Sequence record: PQ850608.1
Direction: 5' to 3' (one strand)
Length of the DNA stretch: 64,000 bases
Source: Escherichia phage HermannAdler_Bas98
Part shown: positions 1 through 58,555 of the stretch, piece by piece
Layout: every line of letters starts with the position of its first letter
Position numbering within the stretch: the stretch's first letter is position 1
Position numbers and translations under genes: made by a program
Notes under the pieces: model-generated
Told to the model about the DNA's origin: nothing
What the model saw: only the letters and a program-made list of their open reading frames with translations
Database searches by the model: none

Positions 1-240
1 TTCATCATTAACCAAAATGATAATTATTCTGGCGAATTTGATGAACACAAGTGTATGCTTGGATTTGATTCAGCAGAAGAAGCGAAAGAAGCTTATCAGG
101 CGTCATTTGGTAACGGTTGGAACGGATTTGACTCAATCCACGAATTGGATGTCAACTCATTCAAGGAGTGGTTGAAGGGTGATTGCTCTCAAGCATATGG
201 AGCACTCAACAATCCTACTAATTCACCGAAGCAAGGTTGA
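1..240 (+). CDS. 3' end of a gene starting upstream of the window (probably portal protein)
   Basis: Frame open from base 1 to TGA 238-240; directly followed by Mu F-like head morphogenesis gene, the usual neighbour of portal; product not recognisable from 80 aa. Confidence 0.35.
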   Translation, partial: FIINQNDNYSGEFDEHKCMLGFDSAEEAKEAYQASFGNGWNGFDSIHELDVNSFKEWLKGDCSQAYGALNNPTNSPKQG

Positions 241-241
241 T

Positions 242-1093
242 ATGGCTTTTAAAGCTTCGAAAAAACGTGAACGCCGCTTACCCGATAGAGTCGGGCGCGG
301 CAGTCCGATAATCCCATCCAACGCAATCGCGATGGCCTATCGTCGTGAGATGAAAGGTCTTTGCTATGCGATGATTGACGACTATCAAGAAGGAATTGCT
401 GAGTGGCTTGAAAAGAAGCAGGTAAAAAAATTCTTTGCGCAAGACTCTGCTGATTCAACTTTTCAAACCTTGATGAAGCGCCTTCAACTGAAATGGGCAA
501 AAGCATTCGCCCGTGTCGGGTCAAAGATTGCCGCAGATTTCATCAAGTCAGTTGAAAAGGGCGCGACTTCTGCTACATTTGCAAGTCTTAAATCTGCAGG
601 AATAGAAGCGCCAAAAGCCACATATAATAAATTCGTTGAGAACACTCTTAAAACAAGCGAGACGTTCAACACGACTTTAGTGACTAAGGTTGGCGAGGAT
701 ATTCACAACAGGGTGTACGAAGCGGTGATGCTTTCGCTGACTTCGCCAGACCCAGCGCAACAAGGCACGTCCGGCATTCAGGCGGCATTAAGGCATGTAA
801 AACACTTCTCTGCAAAACGCGTAGACCTTATCGCCAAAGACCAAACGAGCAAACTTTATTGCGTATTAAGTGATGAAAGAATGCGACAGAATGGCGTTGA
901 GGAATTTGAGTGGGCGCATTCAGGAGCAGGAAAAGAGCCGCGAATATCGCATGAGCATGTCGATGGGATGAGATTCAAGCTTGATGACAAACGCTTATGG
1001 GAAGTAGGTGGAGAACTTAAGTTCAAAAAGGGTGACATCGGTCCTCCTGGATGGGCGATACACTGCAAGTGCAGAAAAATACCAATTATCTGA
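242..1093 (+). CDS. head morphogenesis protein (Mu F / SPP1 gp7-like)
   Basis: C-terminal HEHVDG...PPGWAIHCKCR matches the Mu F domain signature (H..DG ... nCRC); ATG 2 nt after upstream stop. Confidence 0.75.
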   Translation: MAFKASKKRERRLPDRVGRGSPIIPSNAIAMAYRREMKGLCYAMIDDYQEGIAEWLEKKQVKKFFAQDSADSTFQTLMKRLQLKWAKAFARVGSKIAADFIKSVEKGATSATFASLKSAGIEAPKATYNKFVENTLKTSETFNTTLVTKVGEDIHNRVYEAVMLSLTSPDPAQQGTSGIQAALRHVKHFSAKRVDLIAKDQTSKLYCVLSDERMRQNGVEEFEWAHSGAGKEPRISHEHVDGMRFKLDDKRLWEVGGELKFKKGDIGPPGWAIHCKCRKIPII

Positions 1094-1100
1094 GGTCATT

Positions 1101-2021
1101 ATGACGATACCAATCAACACATTCCCTCTATCTGGACAAACTCCAGTCTTGCCTGCGGTGTATGCTAATGGCTTGGCAATTGTCTCAGAATTCACTTCTG
1201 ATAAAAACTTGATTGTTCCACTGAGCCCGCCGCTTGCATCAGGGTATAACTCAGTAGGTCAATTCTTTATGATTGGAAATGATGGCGATTCGACCAGCAA
1301 GCCTAATCTGACATTGTCTGTACCTAAGATGGACATCACAGACGTTCAAACTGGCTTGACTGCATCAACAATCACCATTGCTTTTGGAGAAGCGGTGATT
1401 ATAGGAATGGAGTCTGGAGGGTCCAAGAATGCTGTCGCCGTTAAGGTAGTCAAATCCATCGACAACCAATACACGTTACCAGCTGCGACGGCTTCCGTTC
1501 TCGGCGGCGTCAAAATAGGAAGCGGAATAAGCGTCGCAGGTGACGGTACAATTAGCGTCACCCAATACTCATTGCCGATTGCGTCAGCATCTACTTTAGG
1601 CGGCGTAAAGGTCGGTACAACTCTATCAATTGATGGTTCCGGTGTGCTTAACGCAGCGGAAAGCACCGTCCAGAATGCCACGAACAGTGTTAGCAATCCT
1701 CCAACCACTTTGGTTAATCTGGCGACCTTAAACCTTCCTGCAGGAAAGTGGCTTGTGACGGCAAGTCAGTTGACTGTCGCGACAGCAGGAATTCAAGCGA
1801 ATACCGGAATTACATCCAAATTGTCAACAAGCGATTCAGATATTACGGATGATGCATTTACGATGTCAGCTGGCATTCGGGCTGCAGGTCGTTTCGGCGG
1901 CAATATTCCAACAAAGATAATTACTCTTGCCGCTCCTGGCGATGTGTATCTAAACTATCAATGCACAGATGCGTTGACATCTACCGTTTACGGACAGATC
2001 ACCGCAATCAAGCTGAACTAA
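1101..2021 (+). CDS. hypothetical virion protein with internal Gly/Thr-rich duplicated repeats
   Basis: ATG 1101 preceded by GAGGT; internal repeat ASVLGGVKIGSGISVAGDGTISV / ASTLGGVKVGTTLSIDGSGVLNA; position in head module. Confidence 0.5.
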   Translation: MTIPINTFPLSGQTPVLPAVYANGLAIVSEFTSDKNLIVPLSPPLASGYNSVGQFFMIGNDGDSTSKPNLTLSVPKMDITDVQTGLTASTITIAFGEAVIIGMESGGSKNAVAVKVVKSIDNQYTLPAATASVLGGVKIGSGISVAGDGTISVTQYSLPIASASTLGGVKVGTTLSIDGSGVLNAAESTVQNATNSVSNPPTTLVNLATLNLPAGKWLVTASQLTVATAGIQANTGITSKLSTSDSDITDDAFTMSAGIRAAGRFGGNIPTKIITLAAPGDVYLNYQCTDALTSTVYGQITAIKLN

Positions 2022-2031
2022 AGAGGAAGTT

Positions 2032-2169
2032 ATGCAAAAGATTATTCAGTCACGTTATGTTAAAGTGCGAAATATTAATTGCAACTCTTTGCTTTCTTGG
2101 AAATGGGCCGTTTACGACTCGATGTTAATTGGCGTTTTAGTTGCAGGAGTGCTATTTAATATTCACTGA
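2032..2169 (+). CDS. small hydrophobic protein (45 aa)
   Basis: ATG 2032 after AGAGGAAG; one hydrophobic segment (SMLIGVLVAGVLF); short ORF, weak support. Confidence 0.25.
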   Translation: MQKIIQSRYVKVRNINCNSLLSWKWAVYDSMLIGVLVAGVLFNIH

Positions 2170-2204
2170 ATTCATCGGCAAAGGATTGCCGCGAGTTTTA
2201 TACG

Positions 2205-2480
2205 TATAATGACGTATCATCCGTATCAAGTAAGTTATTGTTTTCAAAAGAATCTTACGGATGATACGGATGATACGCGTTGCCGCCGTACTATATAGGA
2301 ATTCAAATAAATTAATTTAAAATTATATATCTAATTTAATTTTATTTTTTTATAAACTCTTATATATGAAAAGTATCCGTATCATCCGTATCATCCGTAG
2401 CACACCAGTGATAGCGCGGCTTATACACCGATACGGATAAAAATACGCCTCATTTTATCCGTATCATCCGTATCACACTA
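2205..2480. repeat. iteron / AT-rich module A: tandem and inverted copies of the 9-mer ATCCGTATC flanking an AT-rich core
   Basis: ATCCGTATCATCCGTATCATCCGTAG at 2376-2399, ACGGATGATACGGATGATACG at 2259-2277, further copies 2213-2228 and 2458-2476; AT-rich core 2290-2360 contains GAATTC. Confidence 0.7.
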
Positions 2481-2532
2481 ATAAAGGCGCGGCTATATTG
2501 GTTGTTATACATATTCAAACCATAATTATTGT

Positions 2533-2561
2533 TTGCCTAAGTTTTTTTCATTAGATATAAT
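2533..2561 (+). promoter_or_regulatory. sigma70-type promoter candidate for the scaffold/capsid operon
   Basis: TTGCCT - 17 nt - TATAAT, 30 nt upstream of the 2591 start. Confidence 0.45.
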
Positions 2562-2590
2562 ACACAATACTTATTTGAGGGTGGATGCGA

Positions 2591-4006
2591 ATGCAAACGG
2601 CACGCGAAATTGACAAAAATGGATTCTTGACGATTATGGGTTGTCCAATTTCGTCATTTGGCATTTTTGATTATTCTGCTGGTCAAGTCGGTCTTGATGG
2701 TGATCCGAATCGCATCGTAAAAGTCTATCGCCCTGAGTCAGCGGTGAAAGACCCCGAAGCGATAGATTCATTCAAAAATATCCCTTTCATCGACAATCAC
2801 GAAATGCTTTCTGGATTTGAAGGTGATGAGGATAACACAGCACCCGAAGAGTATGGAGTTGATGGCGTTCTGACTGGCAATGTTTATTATGACAAGCCAT
2901 GGATGCGCGGCGACCTTAAAGTGTTTAGCCGTCGTCTGAAGAAGGCCATTGATTCTGGAAAGGTTGACTTGTCTTTGGGCTATGACTGTGAATTCATCAT
3001 ACAGTCTGGAGAGTTTGACGGGCAGCCGTATGAAGTGGTGCAGACAACTCTTCGCGGCAACCACATTGCTCTCGTGGACGTTGGTCGAGTACCAGGTGCA
3101 CGGGTGCTGGATGGTCGTTGCTTTGACCATCTTTGTTTGACGACTGTAACACCATCCAACGAGGATTTAGACATGCCAAAACCGTTAAAAGGTAAAGCGC
3201 GTGATAATGCTGTTGAACAGCTGAAATCACTGATCCCTGCGCTCGAACAATTTCTGAACGAAGAGAGTACTGAAGCTGCTCATCAGGACGAAGTTGAAGT
3301 GAAAGCAGAAGAGAAGGACTCAACCGAAAATCGTGAAGAAGTAATGGTTGATCCAGAAGTCAAGGCAGAAGCAGAAGAAACCCCAGAAGGTGAAGAGAAG
3401 TTTGAAGTTGAAACTGAATCTCACGCTGGCGGCGAACTTCCGCAATTGATCAGCCAAATCGAAGCACTTATTGCAAAACTGAAAGGTGGCGCGGTAGGTG
3501 ATGAAGAAGAAGTTGAAGCCGAAGTCAAAGACGAAGAAGAAGTTGAAGTCAAGGCTGAAGATGTATCACCTTGCGACAAAGCTGAAGATGTGGTTAGCGG
3601 CCTGCAAAACAGCAACGTAAAGGGGGCTTCGGTCGAAAAAGATGACAAACCGACAAAAGCGGCGAAAGCGTCGCCAGGTCCAGCAAAAGGGGAACACTCA
3701 ATGGCATCTGATTCAGCAGTTGCTGCTTTCTACGCTGATTCTGCTCGTAAGAATAGCCTCTACCAGCGCCTGTCTAAAGTTGTTGGTGCCTTTGATCATG
3801 CAACTATGGACTCCAAGTCCGTAGCGAAATATGGCGCTAAAAAGTTAGGCTTGAAGTGCGTTGATGGTGCTGAGTTTGACGTGGTGGATAATTATCTGCG
3901 CGGCGTTGAGCACGGTCAAAAACAGCGTGTAGTCGCAAAACAAAAGGCCGCTGCGGATTCTGCAGCAACTGACGAAGCATTTGAAGCTTGGTTGAAAGGG
4001 GAATAA
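2591..4006 (+). CDS. putative prohead protease / scaffolding protein
   Basis: Globular N-terminal domain followed by a long acidic E/K-rich coiled-coil-like tail (EEVEAEVKDEEE...); sits between head morphogenesis and capsid genes; GAGGGTGG RBS. Confidence 0.45.
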   Translation: MQTAREIDKNGFLTIMGCPISSFGIFDYSAGQVGLDGDPNRIVKVYRPESAVKDPEAIDSFKNIPFIDNHEMLSGFEGDEDNTAPEEYGVDGVLTGNVYYDKPWMRGDLKVFSRRLKKAIDSGKVDLSLGYDCEFIIQSGEFDGQPYEVVQTTLRGNHIALVDVGRVPGARVLDGRCFDHLCLTTVTPSNEDLDMPKPLKGKARDNAVEQLKSLIPALEQFLNEESTEAAHQDEVEVKAEEKDSTENREEVMVDPEVKAEAEETPEGEEKFEVETESHAGGELPQLISQIEALIAKLKGGAVGDEEEVEAEVKDEEEVEVKAEDVSPCDKAEDVVSGLQNSNVKGASVEKDDKPTKAAKASPGPAKGEHSMASDSAVAAFYADSARKNSLYQRLSKVVGAFDHATMDSKSVAKYGAKKLGLKCVDGAEFDVVDNYLRGVEHGQKQRVVAKQKAAADSAATDEAFEAWLKGE

Positions 4007-54529: not shown

Positions 54530-54790
54530 ATTCATACGTATCATGACGTATCATTGGGCTATTGATTTATAAGGAAAAATACGCTGATACGGATGATACG
54601 GGTGCAAACATAATATATATAGAATTCCAGAAAATTAATTAACTCCATTTTGAATTAATTTAAATTAATTTTTTTCTACATCCTCATACTTATACTAAAC
54701 TTATATTCATACGTATCATCCGTAAGATATAAGTAAAAACAAGGACTTGCGGCAATACGGATGATACGTCATGATACGCTTCGACCAGCC
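54530..54790. repeat. iteron / AT-rich module B (homologous to 2205-2480)
   Basis: CATACGTATCATGACGTATCAT, GATACGGATGATACG, AT-rich core with GAATTC and AATTAATTTAAATTAATTTTTTT, then CATACGTATCATCCGTA and AATACGGATGATACGTCATGATACG. Confidence 0.7.
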
Positions 54791-54943
54791 AGCAGCGGCT
54801 AAGTCATTGATTTGCATAGCAAGCGGCGAAAGGGATGGATTTCTTTTATACGTATCAAACAGTACACCACGCACCACGGTCCGCAATCCTATTTGCAATA
54901 TGATTTGTGTACGTTTATAGCCATAATGAACATCAATCTGCAC

Positions 54944-54972
54944 TTGAATATAATGTCCATCCATTGTATAAT
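54944..54972 (+). promoter_or_regulatory. sigma70-type promoter candidate
   Basis: TTGAAT - 17 nt - TATAAT. Confidence 0.45.
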
Positions 54973-54992
54973 TCACACTATTAATTTGCACT

Positions 54993-55481
54993 ATGGGATT
55001 TTGCACTATGAGTCAAGATTATGTAGCGATGCCTGAAGACTTTGAAGACCCGCGATTCGCAGAGCACAATCAGGCTTTATTCGATGAGTTCATTGACCTT
55101 GTTATTCAGGGTCATGACATGCGCGCAGCTTTTGCACTAGTATTTGGAATGGAAGTTGCAACGGATAACTACACTGGCCAGCGAATCCTTTGCACGCAAC
55201 GCAATCCATACTACAAGATGCGCTTCAAAAAGCGTATGGAAGAGATGCCACTCAAGGATTTGTGGAGCGTAAAAGGTGCAATTCACAATTTGGTCAAGCT
55301 TGTGCGTGATCCAGAAGTCGCGGCGTCAGCCAAGCTTAATGCTATTCGTGAACTGAATATCATCTACGGCATCACGATGATTGATGAAAACGGCAATAGT
55401 AAAATGGGCCGTTCTATGGACGATTTCTACAAGGATTTTGGAGAGGCTGCCAAAGAAGGAGAGCAATTCTCCCGCCACTAG
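54993..55481 (+). CDS. hypothetical protein (possible helix-turn-helix; terminase small subunit-like)
   Basis: 162 aa ORF; no Shine-Dalgarno; the repeat motif TTTGCACTATG lies on its start region; functional call speculative. Confidence 0.4.
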   Translation: MGFCTMSQDYVAMPEDFEDPRFAEHNQALFDEFIDLVIQGHDMRAAFALVFGMEVATDNYTGQRILCTQRNPYYKMRFKKRMEEMPLKDLWSVKGAIHNLVKLVRDPEVAASAKLNAIRELNIIYGITMIDENGNSKMGRSMDDFYKDFGEAAKEGEQFSRH

Positions 55482-55500
55482 CCAATTTGCACTATAAAAC

Positions 55501-55534
55501 GGCCCTAGAACACATGTTCTCCACTTCTAGGGCC
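55501..55534 (+). terminator. stem-loop (possible terminator)
   Basis: GGCCCTAGAA - 14 nt - TTCTAGGGCC; no T tract. Confidence 0.35.
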
Positions 55535-55595
55535 ATCGGTAATACGACGGGGAAGGTCGCACCCATAAACGCGTTAGAAAGTGTATTATTATAAG

Positions 55596-55859
55596 TCATC
55601 TTTTAGTCGCTTTACGTAACAATTTACGACCTTCAACCGTCCAATCGAACGACTCCACCAGCAGATTCGCACTATAACCTAAGACGATGCGCCCTTTCTC
55701 GTTATCGACCCGCCAACAAGTCTCGAATAGCATTCGATTTGCACTATTAACTATTGCCGCAACGCGCGTAGGGTAAGCGCAATTTGCACTATGGTCGTAA
55801 AGGGATAAGGTGCGACCACTTCCGATGGACAATGTAGCGATGAGAATAAGCGTATTCAT
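55596..55859 (-). CDS. hypothetical protein (doubtful ORF within repeat array)
   Basis: 87 aa ORF with GGTGG RBS, but contains three motif copies (translated as SAN). Confidence 0.3.
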   Translation of the reverse strand: MNTLILIATLSIGSGRTLSLYDHSANCAYPTRVAAIVNSANRMLFETCWRVDNEKGRIVLGYSANLLVESFDWTVEGRKLLRKATKR

Positions 55860-55909
55860 AAGCCACCAATTTGCACTATGAAAAGCGACCCCGAAGGGCC
55901 GCCATTCGA

Positions 55910-56536
55910 TTAGATAATCTGGAAGGTGTAGGACTTGTTGCCGAACTCGAAGTTCAAGCGTCCAGCTTCTTTAAGCTTCATGCGGAAGCGAATGTGCTTG
56001 CTATCCGGTAATCCCAGCGCGGCGAAGGCTACGCGGACCGATTTGAACTCGCCTACACCCTCGACCATAACGCCGTTACGGGTGAGACGCTTTTGCGCCA
56101 CTTCCTTATTATCCCAACTTTTTGCAATACCTTCGCTATTCGAACGGCGATGGGAAGGAGTTCCATTTTGCACTACGCAATTTGCACTATCGTTTAAGCC
56201 GCTCTTAACGAAGGCTTCATACTCTTCATCGCTCATCGCGTCGAGTTCTTCCTGGGTCGGCTCAGCCTTTTTAACGACCGCACGCGCCTTATGCGTTTTT
56301 ACATCACTGGACACTTCCTCACGCGGCTTCGCGTCGGGAATGGGCGATTCGTTGGACGGCTCATCGAGCGCGTTTAAGGACTCGATTAACGCGATTACGC
56401 GAGTCTCGGCGGTCCGGCGGTCCGCAAATTTCTTAATCGGCTTCGAACCGGAATTTGCATTATAAAATGCAACGAGGTCGGCGGTCTTAGTTGCGATAAC
56501 GTCGCCGCTAGTAGAAAAGCGATTTAAGCTAACCAT
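55910..56536 (-). CDS. hypothetical protein (candidate DNA-binding protein of the island)
   Basis: 208 aa; RBS context AGGAGTTTATTATGG identical to the next gene; two motif copies inside coding sequence. Confidence 0.5.
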   Translation of the reverse strand: MVSLNRFSTSGDVIATKTADLVAFYNANSGSKPIKKFADRRTAETRVIALIESLNALDEPSNESPIPDAKPREEVSSDVKTHKARAVVKKAEPTQEELDAMSDEEYEAFVKSGLNDSANCVVQNGTPSHRRSNSEGIAKSWDNKEVAQKRLTRNGVMVEGVGEFKSVRVAFAALGLPDSKHIRFRMKLKEAGRLNFEFGNKSYTFQII

Positions 56537-56616
56537 AATAAACTCCTATTTGTTAGGGCGCTAGGCGCGAAAGAATTTTATTAAAGCGCCGCGCACGACG
56601 CTCTAAAAATCCTCTC

Positions 56617-56931
56617 TTACTCTTCGTCGTCTTCGATTAATTCGAGGGCGAAGGCGTAAGCTTTGCTATCGTAATTAACTAAAACGGCGAGTTCGAACTC
56701 GTTAATAAACGCCGTTTTACCGCATAAATTTAATTCCGCATCGACTTCGAAGAATCCGTTTTCGTCGCGCTCTAAGCGAGAAGCAGCGAGTTGCTCGATT
56801 ACCGTCGCGTCGTTAATTTCTTCGCCTAAGCGAACGCCGGAGAATTTCGCGAGAATTTCGCCGTAAGTAAGCGTAACGCCCTGGACTTCGGCGGCGGCGT
56901 TTTCGAGGGTAAAGCGGGTAACGATAGCCAT
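56617..56931 (-). CDS. small very acidic protein (104 aa)
   Basis: 22 Asp/Glu vs 7 Lys/Arg; AGGAGTTTATTATGG start context; C-ending codon bias distinct from neighbouring early genes. Confidence 0.6.
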   Translation of the reverse strand: MAIVTRFTLENAAAEVQGVTLTYGEILAKFSGVRLGEEINDATVIEQLAASRLERDENGFFEVDAELNLCGKTAFINEFELAVLVNYDSKAYAFALELIEDDEE

Positions 56932-56999
56932 AATAAACTCCTAGTTGGGAGAGGCGTTAACGACCTATTCGTTAACTCATCCCGTCCCGATATGAGTAC

Positions 57000-57027
57000 A
57001 TTATAATATAGTGTAGAAAAAAGTAAA
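57000..57027 (-). promoter_or_regulatory. promoter cassette copy (minus strand) driving 56617-56931
   Basis: Minus strand reads GTGCTTTACT - 16 nt - TATAAT ... ATATCGGGACGGG, matching the two plus-strand cassettes. Confidence 0.5.
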
Positions 57028-57071
57028 GCACTTTTTCGATAAAAATGCGATAAATTATTTTATCTTTTTTC

Positions 57072-57099
57072 TTTACTTCTTCGTACACTCGCGTATACT
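57072..57099 (+). promoter_or_regulatory. promoter cassette copy driving 57156-57458
   Basis: CTTTACTTCTTCGTACACT ... TATACT (16 nt spacer) ... TTTATATCGAGACGGG. Confidence 0.5.
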
Positions 57100-57155
57100 T
57101 GTTTATATCGAGACGGGCGATGGCCCTTTCTTCTACTAGCATCGGGAGCTTTATT

Positions 57156-57458
57156 ATGACTACTTTAATCTCTTCCATCCTTACTTACGACGAAGACCGC
57201 TTAACCGTTCGCTCTCTTATCGCCGCCGTTAACGCGGAACTAGAATCTAGCGCCATTAAGGTCCGCGCGGTCGCCTTCATCGGCCTTTCCTTCGACGATA
57301 TGAAGTATGCCGAACGTAGCGCCATCCGCTTCGCGAAGACCGACGACGAAGCCGTTACCCTTATCGAGACGGTTACGCCGCGCGGCGAAGCGTTAATTAT
57401 CGTCGAGTATATCGACGTAGAAGGCGATAAATCTTATAAACATTTTATCGCAGAATAA
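57156..57458 (+). CDS. small acidic protein (100 aa)
   Basis: 18 Asp/Glu vs 11 Lys/Arg; C-ending codon bias. Confidence 0.6.
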   Translation: MTTLISSILTYDEDRLTVRSLIAAVNAELESSAIKVRAVAFIGLSFDDMKYAERSAIRFAKTDDEAVTLIETVTPRGEALIIVEYIDVEGDKSYKHFIAE

Positions 57459-57470
57459 CGAAAAAAGTGC

Positions 57471-57499
57471 TTTACTTCTTCGTACACTAAGACTATAAT
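57471..57499 (+). promoter_or_regulatory. promoter cassette copy driving 57567-57857
   Basis: GTGCTTTACTTCTTCGTACACT ... TATAAT (17 nt spacer) ... TTTATATCGAGAGGGG. Confidence 0.55.
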
Positions 57500-57566
57500 G
57501 TTTTATATCGAGAGGGGATGAGGTAGCGAATAGGTCACTACCCTCCCGACTAACTAGGAGAATATT

Positions 57567-57857
57567 ATGATTACTTTAGCCGCTATCCGTTCCGCTCGCG
57601 TCGAAACTTCCGAAAACTCTAACGTATTTGGCGAAAAACTTAAAAACGTTTATCTCTTTAACGTAGATGCGACTATCGAGGAGCTTCACAGTCCTATCGA
57701 TTTTAGCGAATTTACGGAACTCGAAGAGGAAGATATTTCTACCTTCCGCGTTACTATCGAAGGCAAGGTTTATTTTGCTACGGAGTTCGGCGGCGAATAT
57801 CTCGCGGTATCCGAAGGCGAAGGCCGTTACTCTTTCTTTAAAATCGTTTCCTTATAA
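57567..57857 (+). CDS. small acidic protein (96 aa)
   Basis: 18 Asp/Glu vs 8 Lys/Arg; TAGGAG RBS. Confidence 0.6.
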   Translation: MITLAAIRSARVETSENSNVFGEKLKNVYLFNVDATIEELHSPIDFSEFTELEEEDISTFRVTIEGKVYFATEFGGEYLAVSEGEGRYSFFKIVSL

Positions 57858-57877
57858 TACCCTTCCGTTACTAATAG

Positions 57878-57900
57878 GCCGCGCTTAGTCGCGGCTTTTC
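57878..57900 (+). terminator. rho-independent terminator
   Basis: GCCGCG-CTTAGT-CGCGGC followed by TTTT. Confidence 0.6.
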
Positions 57901-57904
57901 TTCG

Positions 57905-58555
57905 TCCCTATCTCGATGCGCTCCTACGCGAAAACTCCTTTATCCTTCCCTTCGTCGTCGCATAATCTTCTTCGAGATGCGTCTTAGTTCGCATAACAGG
58001 TATTACGTTAAATGGAGAACATCGCGTAAGTCCTTGTTTTATATAGACACCTATATCGGACCGTTAGGGCGGGTCGCGTAAGTCGTTGTTTTATAAAGGC
58101 ACAAAACTTTCCCTTCGTTCCGAACTAAAACGAGAAATATGCCGACCCTTCGCCCGAAAATAGTACGTATGCGAAATTACATTCATCTCGAATAATCCCT
58201 CCCGATATTATCCTACACGCAATCATTCGCTTTCGAATCATTATGCTTCATATTATTATGCGTCGAATCATTCGCTTTCGAATTGTAACGCTGGAAACTG
58301 TAACGTCGATTGATTATTGCGTTCGTGTGGTTTTTATGGCATGGGTCTTTTGGTGCGTTTTGCTACTTGATGGAATTTGCGGTACACTAATCAAAATACG
58401 ACACATTTGGTCCACTAACTTTTCAAAGAAAAAGTCCTAGACAGTACCGTACTATTTTGTACCCACAGGAAATTTGCAGTACACTCCTGAGCGGCAGGCA
58501 AAATAAAGGGCCGCACTAAGCGACCCACGATTCACGGTTAAATCAGCAACACCCA
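57905..58555. repeat. noncoding repeat-rich region
   Basis: No credible ORF; duplicated GCGTAAGTC(C/G)TTGTTTTATA, duplicated AATCATTCGCTTTCGAAT (ATTCG...CGAAT arms), duplicated TTTGC(G/A)GTACACT. Confidence 0.55.

What the first reader, a model, noticed from the sequence alone, without database searches (positions are those of the whole stretch)
56956..57542. Conserved 5' UTR hairpin with compensatory stem changes
Between promoter and ribosome-binding site, the leaders of 57567-57857 (plus strand, 57522-57542) and 56617-56931 (minus strand, 56956-56976) each form a 7 bp stem around the same loop AATAGGT: GGTAGCG...CACTACC versus GTTAACG...CGTTAAC. Two stem positions change as pairs (G-C to T-A and G-C to A-T), which argues for selection on RNA structure rather than on a DNA half-site. 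Both leaders also share ATATCG(A/G)GA(C/G)GGGATGAG before the hairpin and CTC(T)CC...CTAGGAG after it. This looks like a translational operator or processing site.
Basis: seen in the sequence. Interest (0 to 1): 0.6.

Follow-up and report, generated by a model that had tools for sequence, protein, structure and literature searches.

The report
Conserved leader RNA hairpin, phage early genes
Two divergently transcribed early genes in the terminal repeat of a Wifcevirus coliphage start their mRNAs with the same small RNA stem-loop (conserved loop, co-varying stem); it is a real, undescribed regulatory-looking RNA element of a familiar kind, and what binds it or what it does is still unknown.

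Summary
The window is a WFC-like Wifcevirus, and the finding lies in its ~3.7 kb direct terminal repeat. Three paralogous sigma70 promoter-leader modules drive three small ORFan genes. Leaders A (57522-57542, +) and B (56976-56956, -) carry a 7-bp stem closed by AAUAGGU. The stems differ by two fully compensated pairs.

One correction: in this window, stem A has a C.A mismatch (57527/57537). All other A copies found pair 7/7 except phage kaset's, which has an A.A mismatch at another position.

Over 17 distinct leader variants, 98.3% of stem cells pair, G.U intermediates occur, and the loop never varies. The hairpin sits on a lower stem shared by all three leaders. Kylevirus phages have a hairpin with a different stem and the loop AAUAGA. 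It lies in the orthologous leader, behind the same promoter class and in front of a homologue of gene B.

Rfam, IMG/VR, metagenomes, E. coli genomes and the literature hold nothing like it outside this phage group.

Selection on RNA structure is supported, but by few independent events. A Wifcevirus-only covariance model does not significantly detect the Kylevirus copy. A strand-asymmetry test was inconclusive.

The function is inferred. The most likely role is a loop-specific recognition hairpin (operator) controlling translation or stability of immediate-early mRNAs. A generic 5' stabiliser or insulator is the main rival.

The parts
57471..57499 (+). Promoter P_A (TTTACT-17-TATAAT), part of the extended conserved core AAAAAGTGCTTTACTTnTTnnTACACT
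   Evidence: 3 copies of the core in 64 kb, 0 expected by chance. The same core occurs in Kylevirus. No experimental TSS exists.
57505..57566 (+). Leader A, from the inferred TSS (first A of ATATCG) to the base before the ATG of gene A
   Evidence: The conserved block ATATCGAGAGGGG begins 6-7 nt after the -10 box in all three modules. R1 scores 89.2 bits here.
57511..57551 (+). Extended bipartite stem-loop A. Lower stem: G-run 57511-57518 with C-rich 57544-57551. Then an internal loop and the upper hairpin.
   Evidence: RNAfold and RNAalifold.
57522..57542 (+). Upper hairpin A: GGUAGCG [AAUAGGU] CACUACC. There is a C.A mismatch at 57527/57537 in this window only.
57556..57560 (+). Shine-Dalgarno AGGAG of gene A
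   Evidence: annotated as an RBS in phage Mansfield.
57567..57857 (+). Gene A (96 aa, acidic ORFan). It is a paralogue of the Mansfield-type allele of gene B.
57580..57604 (+). Candidate long-range competitor: codons 5-13 of gene A, complementary to leader nt +4..+24. Uncertain, and not conserved in other alleles or lineages.
   Evidence: duplex -25.7 kcal/mol, 0/200 shuffles and 0/100 synonymous recodings as extreme. Absent in the FEC19 allele, Kylevirus and L269.
57000..57027 (-). Promoter P_B (TTTACT-16-TATAAT), divergent from P_C
56932..56993 (-). Leader B, from the inferred TSS (56993) to the base before the ATG of gene B
   Evidence: R1 scores 91.6 bits here.
56947..56988 (-). Extended bipartite stem-loop B. 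Lower stem GGGA.GGG with CCU.UCCC.
   Evidence: The 3' strand occurs in three versions among relatives, and all of them still pair.
56956..56976 (-). Upper hairpin B: GUUAACG [AAUAGGU] CGUUAAC, 7 of 7 paired
56938..56942 (-). Shine-Dalgarno AGGAG of gene B
56617..56931 (-). Gene B (104 aa, acidic ORFan), homologous to the Kylevirus genes that follow the Kylevirus hairpin
57072..57099 (+). Promoter P_C (TTTACT-16-TATACT)
57110..57130 (+). Leader C hairpin: the shared lower stem only, GAGA.GGGC [GAUG] GCCC UUUC, without the AAUAGGU hairpin
   Evidence: Replaced by differently sequenced hairpins in Mansfield and ECO71P1.
57156..57458 (+). Gene C (100 aa ORFan)
57876..57897 (+). Intrinsic terminator ending the rightward unit
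   Evidence: annotated in WFC and Mansfield.

Best explanation
**What it is.** The element is a cis-acting RNA stem-loop in the 5' leaders of two divergently transcribed, sigma70-driven genes in the phage's terminal repeat. These genes are presumably immediate-early.

**Anatomy.**
- About 5 unpaired nucleotides (AUAUC) at the 5' end.
- A lower G-run/C-run stem that all three early leaders share.
- In leaders A and B, an upper 7-8 bp hairpin on top of it, presenting the invariant loop (A)AUAGG(U).

**Proposed mechanism (inferred, not shown).** The upper hairpin is a sequence-specific recognition site, an RNA operator, for a trans-acting factor. The factor is most likely a protein made during infection. 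Binding 13-25 nt upstream of the Shine-Dalgarno sequence would co-ordinately repress translation and/or change the stability of the two hairpin-bearing early mRNAs. The lower stem is a generic 5' module that sequesters the SD-like G-run and structures the 5' end.

**Shown versus inferred.**
- Shown: the sequences, their position between predicted promoter and RBS, their conservation, and the pairing pattern.
- Inferred: the TSS, that the structure forms in RNA, the existence of a binding factor, and the regulatory outcome.
For: - **Copy number.** There are two copies only in 64 kb, each about 90 bits with model R1 and nothing else significant.
- **Upper stem over 17 distinct leader variants.** 98.3% of cells are paired. 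Pairs 19-37 (G-C/U-A) and 22-34 (G-C/A-U, with G.U in 3 variants) change on both sides. 0 of 500 shuffles reach the observed pairing or covariation score. Most slid registers collapse, though the +2 slide keeps a covariation score of 0.286 against 0.306.
- **Loop and closing pairs.** CGAAUAGGUCG is invariant in every A and B copy from GenBank, IMG/VR and metagenomes. Meanwhile protein A drops to 58-70% identity, and the neutral promoter positions of A and B differ at most sites.
- **Lower stem.** The 3' flank of leader B exists as GCCUCUCCC, GCCGCUCCC and GCCCGUCGAG, and all three pair with the invariant CGGGACGGG. G12.U becomes A12-U in L177. In Mansfield, C-to-U gives a G.U pair.
- **The hairpin travels with the promoter and leader, not with a gene.** It precedes gene A, two unrelated alleles of gene B, or the 208-aa gene directly.
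- **Kylevirus (PA1, Kyle).** Same promoter class and same divergent layout. The leader hairpin GGC-GA-CGG[AAUAGA]CCG-AA-GCC is 100% identical between two phages whose downstream proteins are 45% identical. It folds with z = -3.4 and precedes a full-length homologue of gene B.
- **Uncultivated relative L269-271.** It has GGUG-A-GCG[AUAGG]CGC-CACC between a sigma70-like promoter and its SD/ATG (z = -3.6).
- **Orientation.** Both window copies have the same orientation relative to transcription while lying on opposite DNA strands.
Against: - **Few independent events.** The two double changes are one A/B split. Within the genus there are about 7 pairing-compatible changes and 2 that break a pair: the window's own C.A and kaset's A.A.
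- **No significant detection of distant copies.** R1, built from Wifcevirus only, does not detect the Kylevirus or L269 hairpins significantly (E about 3-5).
- **The descriptor is not enriched genome-wide.** My helix-plus-AUAG(G/A) descriptor gave 19 hits against 22-51 in shuffles, and it was defined after seeing the cases.
- **No strand asymmetry.** Sense and antisense strands fold about equally well, so thermodynamics does not single out the sense RNA.
- **No direct data.** There is no TSS, transcript or binding-factor data, and no candidate RNA-binding protein was found nearby.
- **Position.** The upper hairpin ends 13 nt before the SD and does not overlap it, unlike many translational operators.
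- **Leader C and two Kylevirus leaders lack the conserved loop.** Part of the selected feature is therefore generic structure.
Confidence: 0.42

Rival explanations
1. Generic 5' structural module with no specific ligand. The stem-loop near the 5' end protects very early mRNAs from 5'-end-dependent decay (RppH/RNase E). It may also insulate the ribosome-binding site by sequestering the SD-like G-run (GAGAGGGG) that the initial transcribed sequence imposes. On this view the loop is conserved for folding or promoter-proximal reasons.
For: - All three window leaders share the lower stem, starting at about +6.
- Leader C has only this stem. In Mansfield and ECO71P1 it is replaced by differently sequenced hairpins at the same place: AGAGGC[GAUGG]GCCUCU and GGGAG[GCGUU]CUCCC.
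- The second Kylevirus leader has GAAGGGG[AAAUGAA]CCUCUUC in Kyle and GAAAGC[GAAGUGA]GCUUUC in PA1. These are mutually compensated and both start right after AUAUCG.
- So a hairpin right after AUAUCG is kept even where its sequence is not.
Against: - This does not explain why CGAAUAGGUCG is invariant in all A and B copies, or why an AUAG(G/A) loop recurs on unrelated stems in Kylevirus and L269.
- It does not explain why the whole Kylevirus hairpin is 100% conserved next to a 45%-identical gene.
- With the inferred TSS about 5 nt stay unpaired at the 5' end. From memory of the ompA-type rules, that is at the limit for protection.
- Other Kylevirus leaders of the same promoter class have no hairpin at all.
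Confidence: 0.25
2. Self-timing folding switch. The local hairpin forms first during transcription (ON). The thermodynamically preferred fold pairs leader nt +4..+24 with codons 5-13 of the gene, which frees CUCC to pair with the SD (OFF). Each transcript is then translatable only while ribosomes keep the coding start open.
For: - Leader A against its own coding start gives -25.7 kcal/mol over 20 bp. 0 of 200 shuffles are as good, and this is better than any other window in the gene.
- With the native coding start, the equilibrium probability of the local hairpin is 0.00-0.11 for gene A. The mean over synonymous recodings is 0.64-0.86, and 0 of 100 are as low.
- Gene B alleles: 5/100 and 6/100.
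Against: - Not conserved. It is absent for the FEC19/Eco4M-7 gene A allele (39/100), the 208-aa gene behind leader B (44/100), leader C, Kylevirus (91/100 and 14/100) and L269 (40/100).
- The direct duplex for leader B is no better than shuffles.
- SD accessibility is no different from shuffled controls.
- Several combinations were tested, so a single p<0.01 result is weak.
- It does not explain loop conservation.
Confidence: 0.1
3. Transcription-level signal in the nascent RNA. This would be a nut/put-like site that modifies RNA polymerase for read-through of downstream terminators, or a hairpin-dependent promoter-proximal pause.
For: - The hairpin has a conserved loop and lies immediately downstream of early promoters, with one copy in each transcription direction.
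- Intrinsic terminators lie downstream in both units.
- In the leftward unit, genes continue beyond an internal terminator.
Against: - No boxA-like sequence is visible (inspection).
- The loop is not a GNRA-like pentaloop.
- No N-like or other recognisable factor was found.
- Rightward read-through past 57897 would run antisense into minus-strand genes, so antitermination there makes little sense.
- No U-tract follows the hairpin.
Confidence: 0.07
4. Double-stranded DNA operator. The inverted repeat would be bound by a dimeric repressor that shuts off the early promoters as a roadblock at +18..+38.
For: - The 7-N7-7 inverted repeat lies just downstream of the promoters.
- The sense/antisense folding test does not favour RNA.
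Against: - The half-sites differ between A and B at 2 of 7 positions, and both arms change together. A protein reading the same half-site would not require that.
- A natural variant makes the arms asymmetric while keeping G.U pairing.
- The non-palindromic centre is the most conserved part.
- Its orientation follows transcription, not the genome.
- The Kylevirus and L269 versions have short, interrupted arms.
Confidence: 0.05
5. No present function. The hairpin would be a relic carried along when the promoter-leader-gene module was duplicated in inverted orientation. The palindrome would be kept perfect by template-switch (quasipalindrome) mutation rather than by selection.
For: - Gene A and the Mansfield-type gene B allele are paralogues, so the whole module was duplicated.
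- Phage F13 carries an extra, truncated copy of the leader A module.
- There are few independent substitutions.
Against: - Neutral promoter positions have diverged heavily between A and B, while the loop, closing pairs and flanks have not.
- The leader block stays at least 92% identical where the protein falls to about 60%.
- The Kylevirus hairpin is fully conserved next to a 45%-identical protein.
Confidence: 0.08

Closest known systems
Phage translational operator hairpins in 5' leaders, e.g. the T4 gene 43 (DNA polymerase) operator; the MS2/PP7 coat-protein operators work on the same principle (from memory)
   Same: A short stem with a sequence-specific loop lies a few tens of nucleotides upstream of the start codon. 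The loop is conserved and the stem is free to covary. The geometry here is -45 to -25 relative to the AUG.
   Different: - No binding protein is known or predictable here.
- The hairpin does not overlap the SD or AUG.
- The same hairpin serves two or more unrelated genes rather than the regulator's own gene.
- Proteins A and B are acidic ORFans and unlikely RNA binders.
5'-terminal stabiliser stem-loops of E. coli mRNAs (ompA-type; from memory)
   Same: A stable stem close to the 5' end of a highly expressed mRNA. The structure is kept while the sequence changes (leader C and the second Kylevirus leader).
   Different: About 5 unpaired nucleotides are predicted at the 5' end. The strictly conserved loop and flanks of the A and B hairpins are not expected for a pure stabiliser.
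Lambdoid nut sites (boxA + boxB), HK022 put, and rrn antiterminators (from memory)
   Same: A hairpin with a conserved loop lies in the nascent RNA just downstream of divergent early promoters, with one copy per direction and terminators downstream.
   Different: There is no boxA, no GNRA-like pentaloop, no N-like protein, and no sensible target for rightward read-through.
MS2 maturation-gene leader, where a long-distance interaction and folding kinetics limit translation to nascent RNA (from memory)
   Same: For gene A only: a local leader hairpin competes with a more stable long-range pairing that would close off the ribosome-binding site.
   Different: The long-range pairing is not conserved across alleles or lineages, and here it involves the coding start rather than an upstream sequence pairing with the SD.

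Membership tests
Any Rfam 15 family | Covariance-model score at or above the family's gathering threshold | tested here: not met
   0 matches in the whole window at gathering thresholds. In the permissive search of 56900-57600 there were only two chance-level hits, to an intron and a miRNA model, far below threshold.
Lambdoid nut site (boxA/boxB) | A boxA element (CGCUCUUA-like) next to the hairpin | tested here: not met
   Inspection of both leaders and all variants. The nearest resemblance is CCUCUCCCAAC after hairpin B, which lacks the GCUCUUUA core.
Lambdoid nut site (boxA/boxB) | A 5-bp stem with a GNRA-like pentaloop, bound by an arginine-rich N protein encoded in the same early operon | tested here: not met
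   The stem is 7-8 bp and the loop is AAUAGGU/AUAGG. Neighbouring proteins have no Pfam or PHROG function and no evident arginine-rich N-terminus.
Intrinsic terminator / attenuator | A G+C-rich hairpin followed directly by a U-tract | tested here: not met
   The hairpins are followed by CCUCCCGAC and GCCUCUCCC, and the terminator scan does not list them.
RNase III processing site (T7 early R sites) | An irregular helix of roughly two turns (about 20 bp) | tested here: not met
   The extended stem has 13 predicted pairs including the lower stem.
5'-terminal stabiliser stem-loop | The stem begins within about 2-4 nt of the 5' end of the transcript | tested here: inconclusive
   The first paired base is +6/+7 if the TSS is the A of ATATCG. 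The TSS is inferred only from the -10 spacing, with an uncertainty of 2 nt.
Translational operator | A specific protein binds the hairpin and lowers initiation at the adjacent RBS | not testable with these tools
   Only the geometry could be checked. The upper hairpin ends 13 nt, and the lower stem 4 nt, upstream of AGGAG.
Palindromic DNA operator | The same half-site sequence in both arms and in all copies bound by one repressor | tested here: not met
   The arms differ between A and B at 2 of 7 positions, changing in both arms together. The ECML-117-type variant is asymmetric.
CsrA/RsmA binding hairpin | A GGA motif presented in the loop | tested here: not met
   The loops are AAUAGGU (Wifcevirus), AAUAGA (Kylevirus) and AUAGG (L269). 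None contains GGA.
One RNA family spanning Wifcevirus, Kylevirus and L269 | Significant covariance-model match of distant members to a model built from Wifcevirus alone | tested here: not met
   R1 scores the Kyle hairpin leader at 11 bits (E 3.3) and L269 at 10.6 bits (E 4.4). For Kylevirus, homology rests on the promoter class and the orthologous downstream gene. For L269 there is no such support.

The most novel reading that the evidence does not exclude
The AAUAGGU hairpin is the RNA address of a still unknown regulator, phage-encoded or a hijacked host protein, that co-ordinately switches the immediate-early, terminal-repeat genes of Wifcevirus and Kylevirus phages. In gene A it may work together with a competing leader-to-codon 5-13 helix as a built-in timer. 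That would make it a new phage RNA-protein regulatory pair in a genus reported to complete its cycle within minutes.
Probability: 0.15. Interest if true: 0.6.

Novelty: new member of a known kind. Interest (0 to 1): 0.36.

Why it matters
Wifcevirus phages are barely studied. They have only recently become tractable on E. coli K-12, and they are reported to replicate unusually fast (bioRxiv 10.1101/2024.09.12.612763, read). Nothing is published on their transcription or on their early genes.

A compact, conserved promoter-leader module with a defined RNA hairpin offers several things:
- A handle on how the first genes expressed from the terminal repeat are controlled.
- A bait for finding the factor that reads the loop.
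- A possible strong, self-contained expression part.

In kind it is a leader hairpin like many known in phages, so a specialist would find it useful rather than surprising.

Tried and rejected
- **Rfam.** Gathering and permissive searches found nothing.
- **IMG/VR scans.** Scans anchored on the promoter and on the loop returned only 4 Wifcevirus genomes. All other hits were chance matches or coding sequence.
- **Metagenome scan** (promoter-anchored). Six more Wifcevirus contigs, but no new stem types.
- **GTDB genome scan.** 120+ chance hits, of which 1 had 6 of 7 pairs, in unrelated coding sequence.
- **E. coli genomes.** No match to the promoter plus leader.
- **Other Lindbergviridae genera** (Myosmarvirus, Carpasinavirus, Pbunavirus). 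No such promoter or hairpin in the regions fetched around the 208-aa homologue.
- **Contiguous-stem scan for AUAG loops, and a looser descriptor.** Neither is enriched over shuffles, so a loop match alone is not evidence.
- **MAFFT alignment of the three lineages' hairpins.** It gave a register that breaks L269's pairs. I therefore built no cross-lineage covariance model.
- **Wifcevirus-only model.** It does not significantly detect the distant leaders.
- **Sense-versus-antisense folding energies.** No consistent difference.
- **SD accessibility with and without the hairpin.** Not distinguishable from controls.
- **Mini-ORF inside the 5' arm** (AUG-AGG-UAG in A, AUG-AGU-UAA in B). Considered and rejected. 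The SD-like G-run abuts the AUG, and the AUG is lost in kaset, L226 and ECO71P1.
- **Upstream in-frame AUG in leader C.** The frame is not conserved (Ro157lw and kaset have a 1-nt deletion, and ECO71P1 has no AUG).
- **Loop-to-start-region pseudoknot** (AAUA with UAUU). Rejected because many leader B variants read UUAAAAUG.
- **T4 MotA-box resemblance of GTGCTTTAC.** The spacing does not fit (from memory). Not pursued.
Full report
**1. Where we are**

The window is a Wifcevirus, an E. coli myovirus now placed in Lindbergviridae.
- It is 97.8% identical to vB_EcoM_WFC over 55500-58500, and 99.9% identical over 56900-57600.
- In phage Mansfield the homologous stretch lies inside the direct terminal repeat (1-3673), as predicted by PhageTerm.
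- WFC and WFH are reported to have a ~3.7 kb repeat (PMC6563267).
- In window coordinates the repeat spans roughly 54650-58320, so the finding sits in its centre.

**2. The observation**

- Hairpin A is GGTAGCG-AATAGGT-CACTACC at 57522-57542 (+).
- Hairpin B is GTTAACG-AATAGGT-CGTTAAC at 56976-56956 (-).
- Each follows a near-consensus sigma70 promoter (TTTACT-17-TATAAT and TTTACT-16-TATAAT) and precedes AGGAG and an ATG.

The one inaccuracy concerns stem A. In this window it has a C.A mismatch (57527/57537). All other A copies recovered carry CGCTACC and pair 7/7, except phage kaset's, which has an A.A mismatch at another position. This includes WFC, which is 99.9% identical over the 701-bp block, equivalent to about one mismatch.

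The motif is not a chance repeat.
- It occurs twice in 64 kb against 0.14 expected.
- Both 34-nt hairpins fold better than shuffles (z = -2.9 and -2.4).
- Four random substitutions would keep seven Watson-Crick pairs only 0.24% of the time.

**3. Anatomy**

There are three paralogous promoter-leader modules, not two.
- P_A drives gene A (96 aa).
- P_B, divergent from P_C, drives gene B (104 aa).
- P_C drives gene C (100 aa).
- They share AAAAAGTGCTTTACTTnTTnnTACACT, the -10 box, and a block ATATCGAGAnGGG. That block begins 6-7 nt after the -10 box, which is where transcription should start.
- At the unconstrained positions between these blocks, modules A and B differ at most sites. The identical loop, closing pairs and flanks therefore reflect constraint rather than a recent copy.

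- The G-run at +6..+13 pairs with the C-rich run after the hairpin.
- Leader C has this lower stem only, capped by CGAUGG.
- Rfam has no family for any of this.
- Proteins A, B and C have no Pfam or PHROG family.

**4. Comparative evidence within the genus**

I collected leaders anchored on the promoter only, from 17 GenBank loci, 4 IMG/VR genomes and 6 metagenome contigs. There are 9 distinct A leaders and 8 distinct B leaders (alignment A2).

RNAalifold predicts the bipartite stem. For the 7-bp upper stem:
- 98.3% of cells pair.
- Pair 19-37 is G-C in A and U-A in B.
- Pair 22-34 is G-C in A, A-U in B, and G.U in three B variants.
- Pair 20-36 is U.G in Bas99.
- No shuffle of 500 reaches the observed pairing or covariation score. 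Most slid registers collapse, though the +2 slide keeps a covariation score of 0.286 against 0.306.

Lower-stem changes are also compatible.
- Leader B's 3' flank occurs as GCCUCUCCC, GCCGCUCCC or GCCCGUCGAG. Each pairs with the invariant CGGGACGGG.
- G12.U becomes A-U in one metagenome contig (L177).
- C-to-U gives a G.U pair in Mansfield.

Two changes break a pair: the window's own C.A and kaset's A.A.

The loop and closing pairs (CGAAUAGGUCG) never vary. The leader block stays at least 92% identical while protein A falls to 58-70% identity. The hairpin stays with the promoter when the downstream gene changes. Leader B precedes a 104-aa allele, an unrelated-looking 94-aa allele (a paralogue of gene A), or the 208-aa gene directly.

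The caveat is that the clade is narrow. The two double changes are a single A/B split, so formal covariation statistics would have little power.

**5. Beyond the genus**

Pantoea phages PA1 and Kyle (Kylevirus) have the same promoter class and the same divergent layout.
- Their first leader on one side carries GGC-GA-CGG[AAUAGA]CCG-AA-GCC. It is identical in both phages although the downstream proteins are 45% identical.
- It folds far better than shuffles (z = -3.4).
- That downstream protein is a full-length homologue of window gene B (32-34% identity, pairwise E about 1e-4). The leaders are therefore orthologous.
- Aligned by structure, nearly every helix position differs from Wifcevirus while the loop keeps AAUAG.
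- A second Kylevirus leader has a generic hairpin right after AUAUCG, with mutually compensated stems in the two phages.
- Two further Kylevirus leaders have no hairpin.

An uncultivated relative (L269-271) has GGUG-A-GCG[AUAGG]CGC-CACC between a sigma70-like promoter and its SD/ATG (z = -3.6). Its gene is unrelated to A or B.

Limits on this evidence:
- A covariance model built from Wifcevirus alone finds only the two window copies (about 90 bits). It scores the Kylevirus and L269 leaders at E about 3-5.
- My helix-plus-AUAG(G/A) descriptor is not enriched genome-wide. However, apart from one weaker hit inside coding sequence (window 51221), every hit lying just after a -10 box and just before an SD is one of these leaders.
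- Other genera of the family showed nothing comparable in the regions fetched.
- The element is absent from E. coli genomes. In a sample of bacterial genomes it appears only at chance level.

**6. RNA or DNA?**

Arguments for sense-strand RNA:
- The position is exactly between the predicted TSS and the RBS.
- The orientation is the same relative to transcription, on opposite DNA strands.
- There are wobble intermediates.
- The two arms change together, which a repressor reading a fixed half-site would not require.
- The non-palindromic centre is the most conserved part.

A direct test of sense against antisense folding energies over all variants was inconclusive. The TSS is inferred, not measured.

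**7. Mechanism**

The pattern is a strictly conserved loop and closing pairs on a stem that is free to covary. It is placed 13-25 nt upstream of the SD and shared by two or more unrelated early genes. That is what a sequence-specific RNA-binding factor would select. I therefore rank [quoted passage not shown] first, at about 0.4.

The generic lower stem, and the sequence-variable hairpins of leader C and the second Kylevirus leader, argue that part of the feature is plain 5' structure acting as a stabiliser or insulator. I give this rival about 0.25.

Nut-like antitermination, a duplex-DNA operator, RNase III processing, attenuation and CsrA sites each fail a defining feature (see the membership table).

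**8. An unexpected lead**

With the first 45 nt of coding sequence included, the predicted equilibrium fold abandons the local hairpin.
- Leader A +4..+24 pairs with codons 5-13 (57580-57604), and CUCC pairs with the SD.
- The duplex is -25.7 kcal/mol. 0 of 200 shuffles and 0 of 100 synonymous recodings are as extreme, and the result holds for two gene A alleles.
- It is weaker for both gene B alleles.
- It is absent for the FEC19-type allele, the 208-aa gene, leader C, Kylevirus and L269.

It is therefore not a property of the element as a family. I keep it as a low-probability rival, a kinetic ON/OFF timer.

**9. Novelty and verdict**

No paper on Wifcevirus mentions promoters, leaders or early regulation, and Rfam has no such family. 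The element is a real, previously undescribed cis-regulatory-looking RNA hairpin of a familiar kind.
- The structural claim is reasonably, not overwhelmingly, supported.
- The function is open.
- Interest is moderate. The element is a good experimental entry point into an unstudied, very fast phage group, but it is not a conceptual surprise.

Noticed in passing
window 54889-56464, minus strand: About 11 same-orientation copies of (C/T)ATAGTGCAAAT(T)G. They cluster in the left half of the terminal repeat: after terminators, in intergenic DNA, and inside the 87-aa and 208-aa ORFs. Only about 6 weak matches occur in the rest of the 64 kb. This could be a phage-specific promoter, a regulator array, or a packaging or repeat-boundary signal.
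   Followed up: partly
window 57537 (hairpin A, 3' arm): The window is 99.9% identical to WFC over 56900-57600, equivalent to about one mismatch. One difference, A here against G in WFC, lies in the hairpin stem and breaks a pair that is kept in every other A copy found. It may be a sequencing error, a neutral variant or an adaptive change.
   Followed up: partly
window 57468-57488, 57010-57031 (-), 57068-57089; L066 and L254: This promoter class has unusual conserved elements besides the -35 and -10 boxes: GTGCTTTAC overlapping the -35, and TACACT inside the spacer. Both are shared between Wifcevirus and Kylevirus. That suggests a factor reads the promoter DNA as well. GTGCTTTAC recalls the T4 MotA box (from memory), but the spacing differs.
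   Followed up: no
window 56617-56931 (-) and the homologous loci L001, L068, L071, L075, L076: The gene B slot is polymorphic. It holds a 104-aa allele (window, WFC, WFH, Bas101), a 94-aa allele that is a paralogue of gene A (Mansfield, AV128, Bas99 and others), or no gene at all, with leader B fused to the 208-aa gene (ECML-117, Ro157lw, RCIP0319, Eco4M-7). The conserved leader looks like a recombination joint for swapping early genes.
   Followed up: partly
L078 (phage F13) 2046 and 2349; L067, L069 2053-2205: F13 carries two copies of the P_A-leader-hairpin module, the first one not followed by an ATG. AV128, ECO71P1 and RCIP0363 have an extra 50-aa gene inserted between gene C and P_A.
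   Followed up: no
window 57518-57526 and 56980-56972 (-): A two-codon mini-ORF overlaps the 5' arm in both leaders: AUG-AGG-UAG in A, and AUG-AGU-UAA (or UAG) in B. It is probably not translated, because the G-run abuts the AUG, and it is lost in kaset, L226 and ECO71P1.
   Followed up: partly
window 58207-58342, minus strand: Near the right boundary of the terminal repeat lie several tandem units of gaatcattcgctttcgaat. Each scores as a promoter-like site (TCGAAA-18-AATAAT).
   Followed up: no
window 55910-56536 (-): The 208-aa early protein (phrog_4730, unknown function) is conserved across all Lindbergviridae searched, with 355 phage records including nearly 300 Pseudomonas PB1-like phages. 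Its C-terminal 75 residues are the best-kept part. It is the only widely conserved gene of this early cluster.
   Followed up: partly
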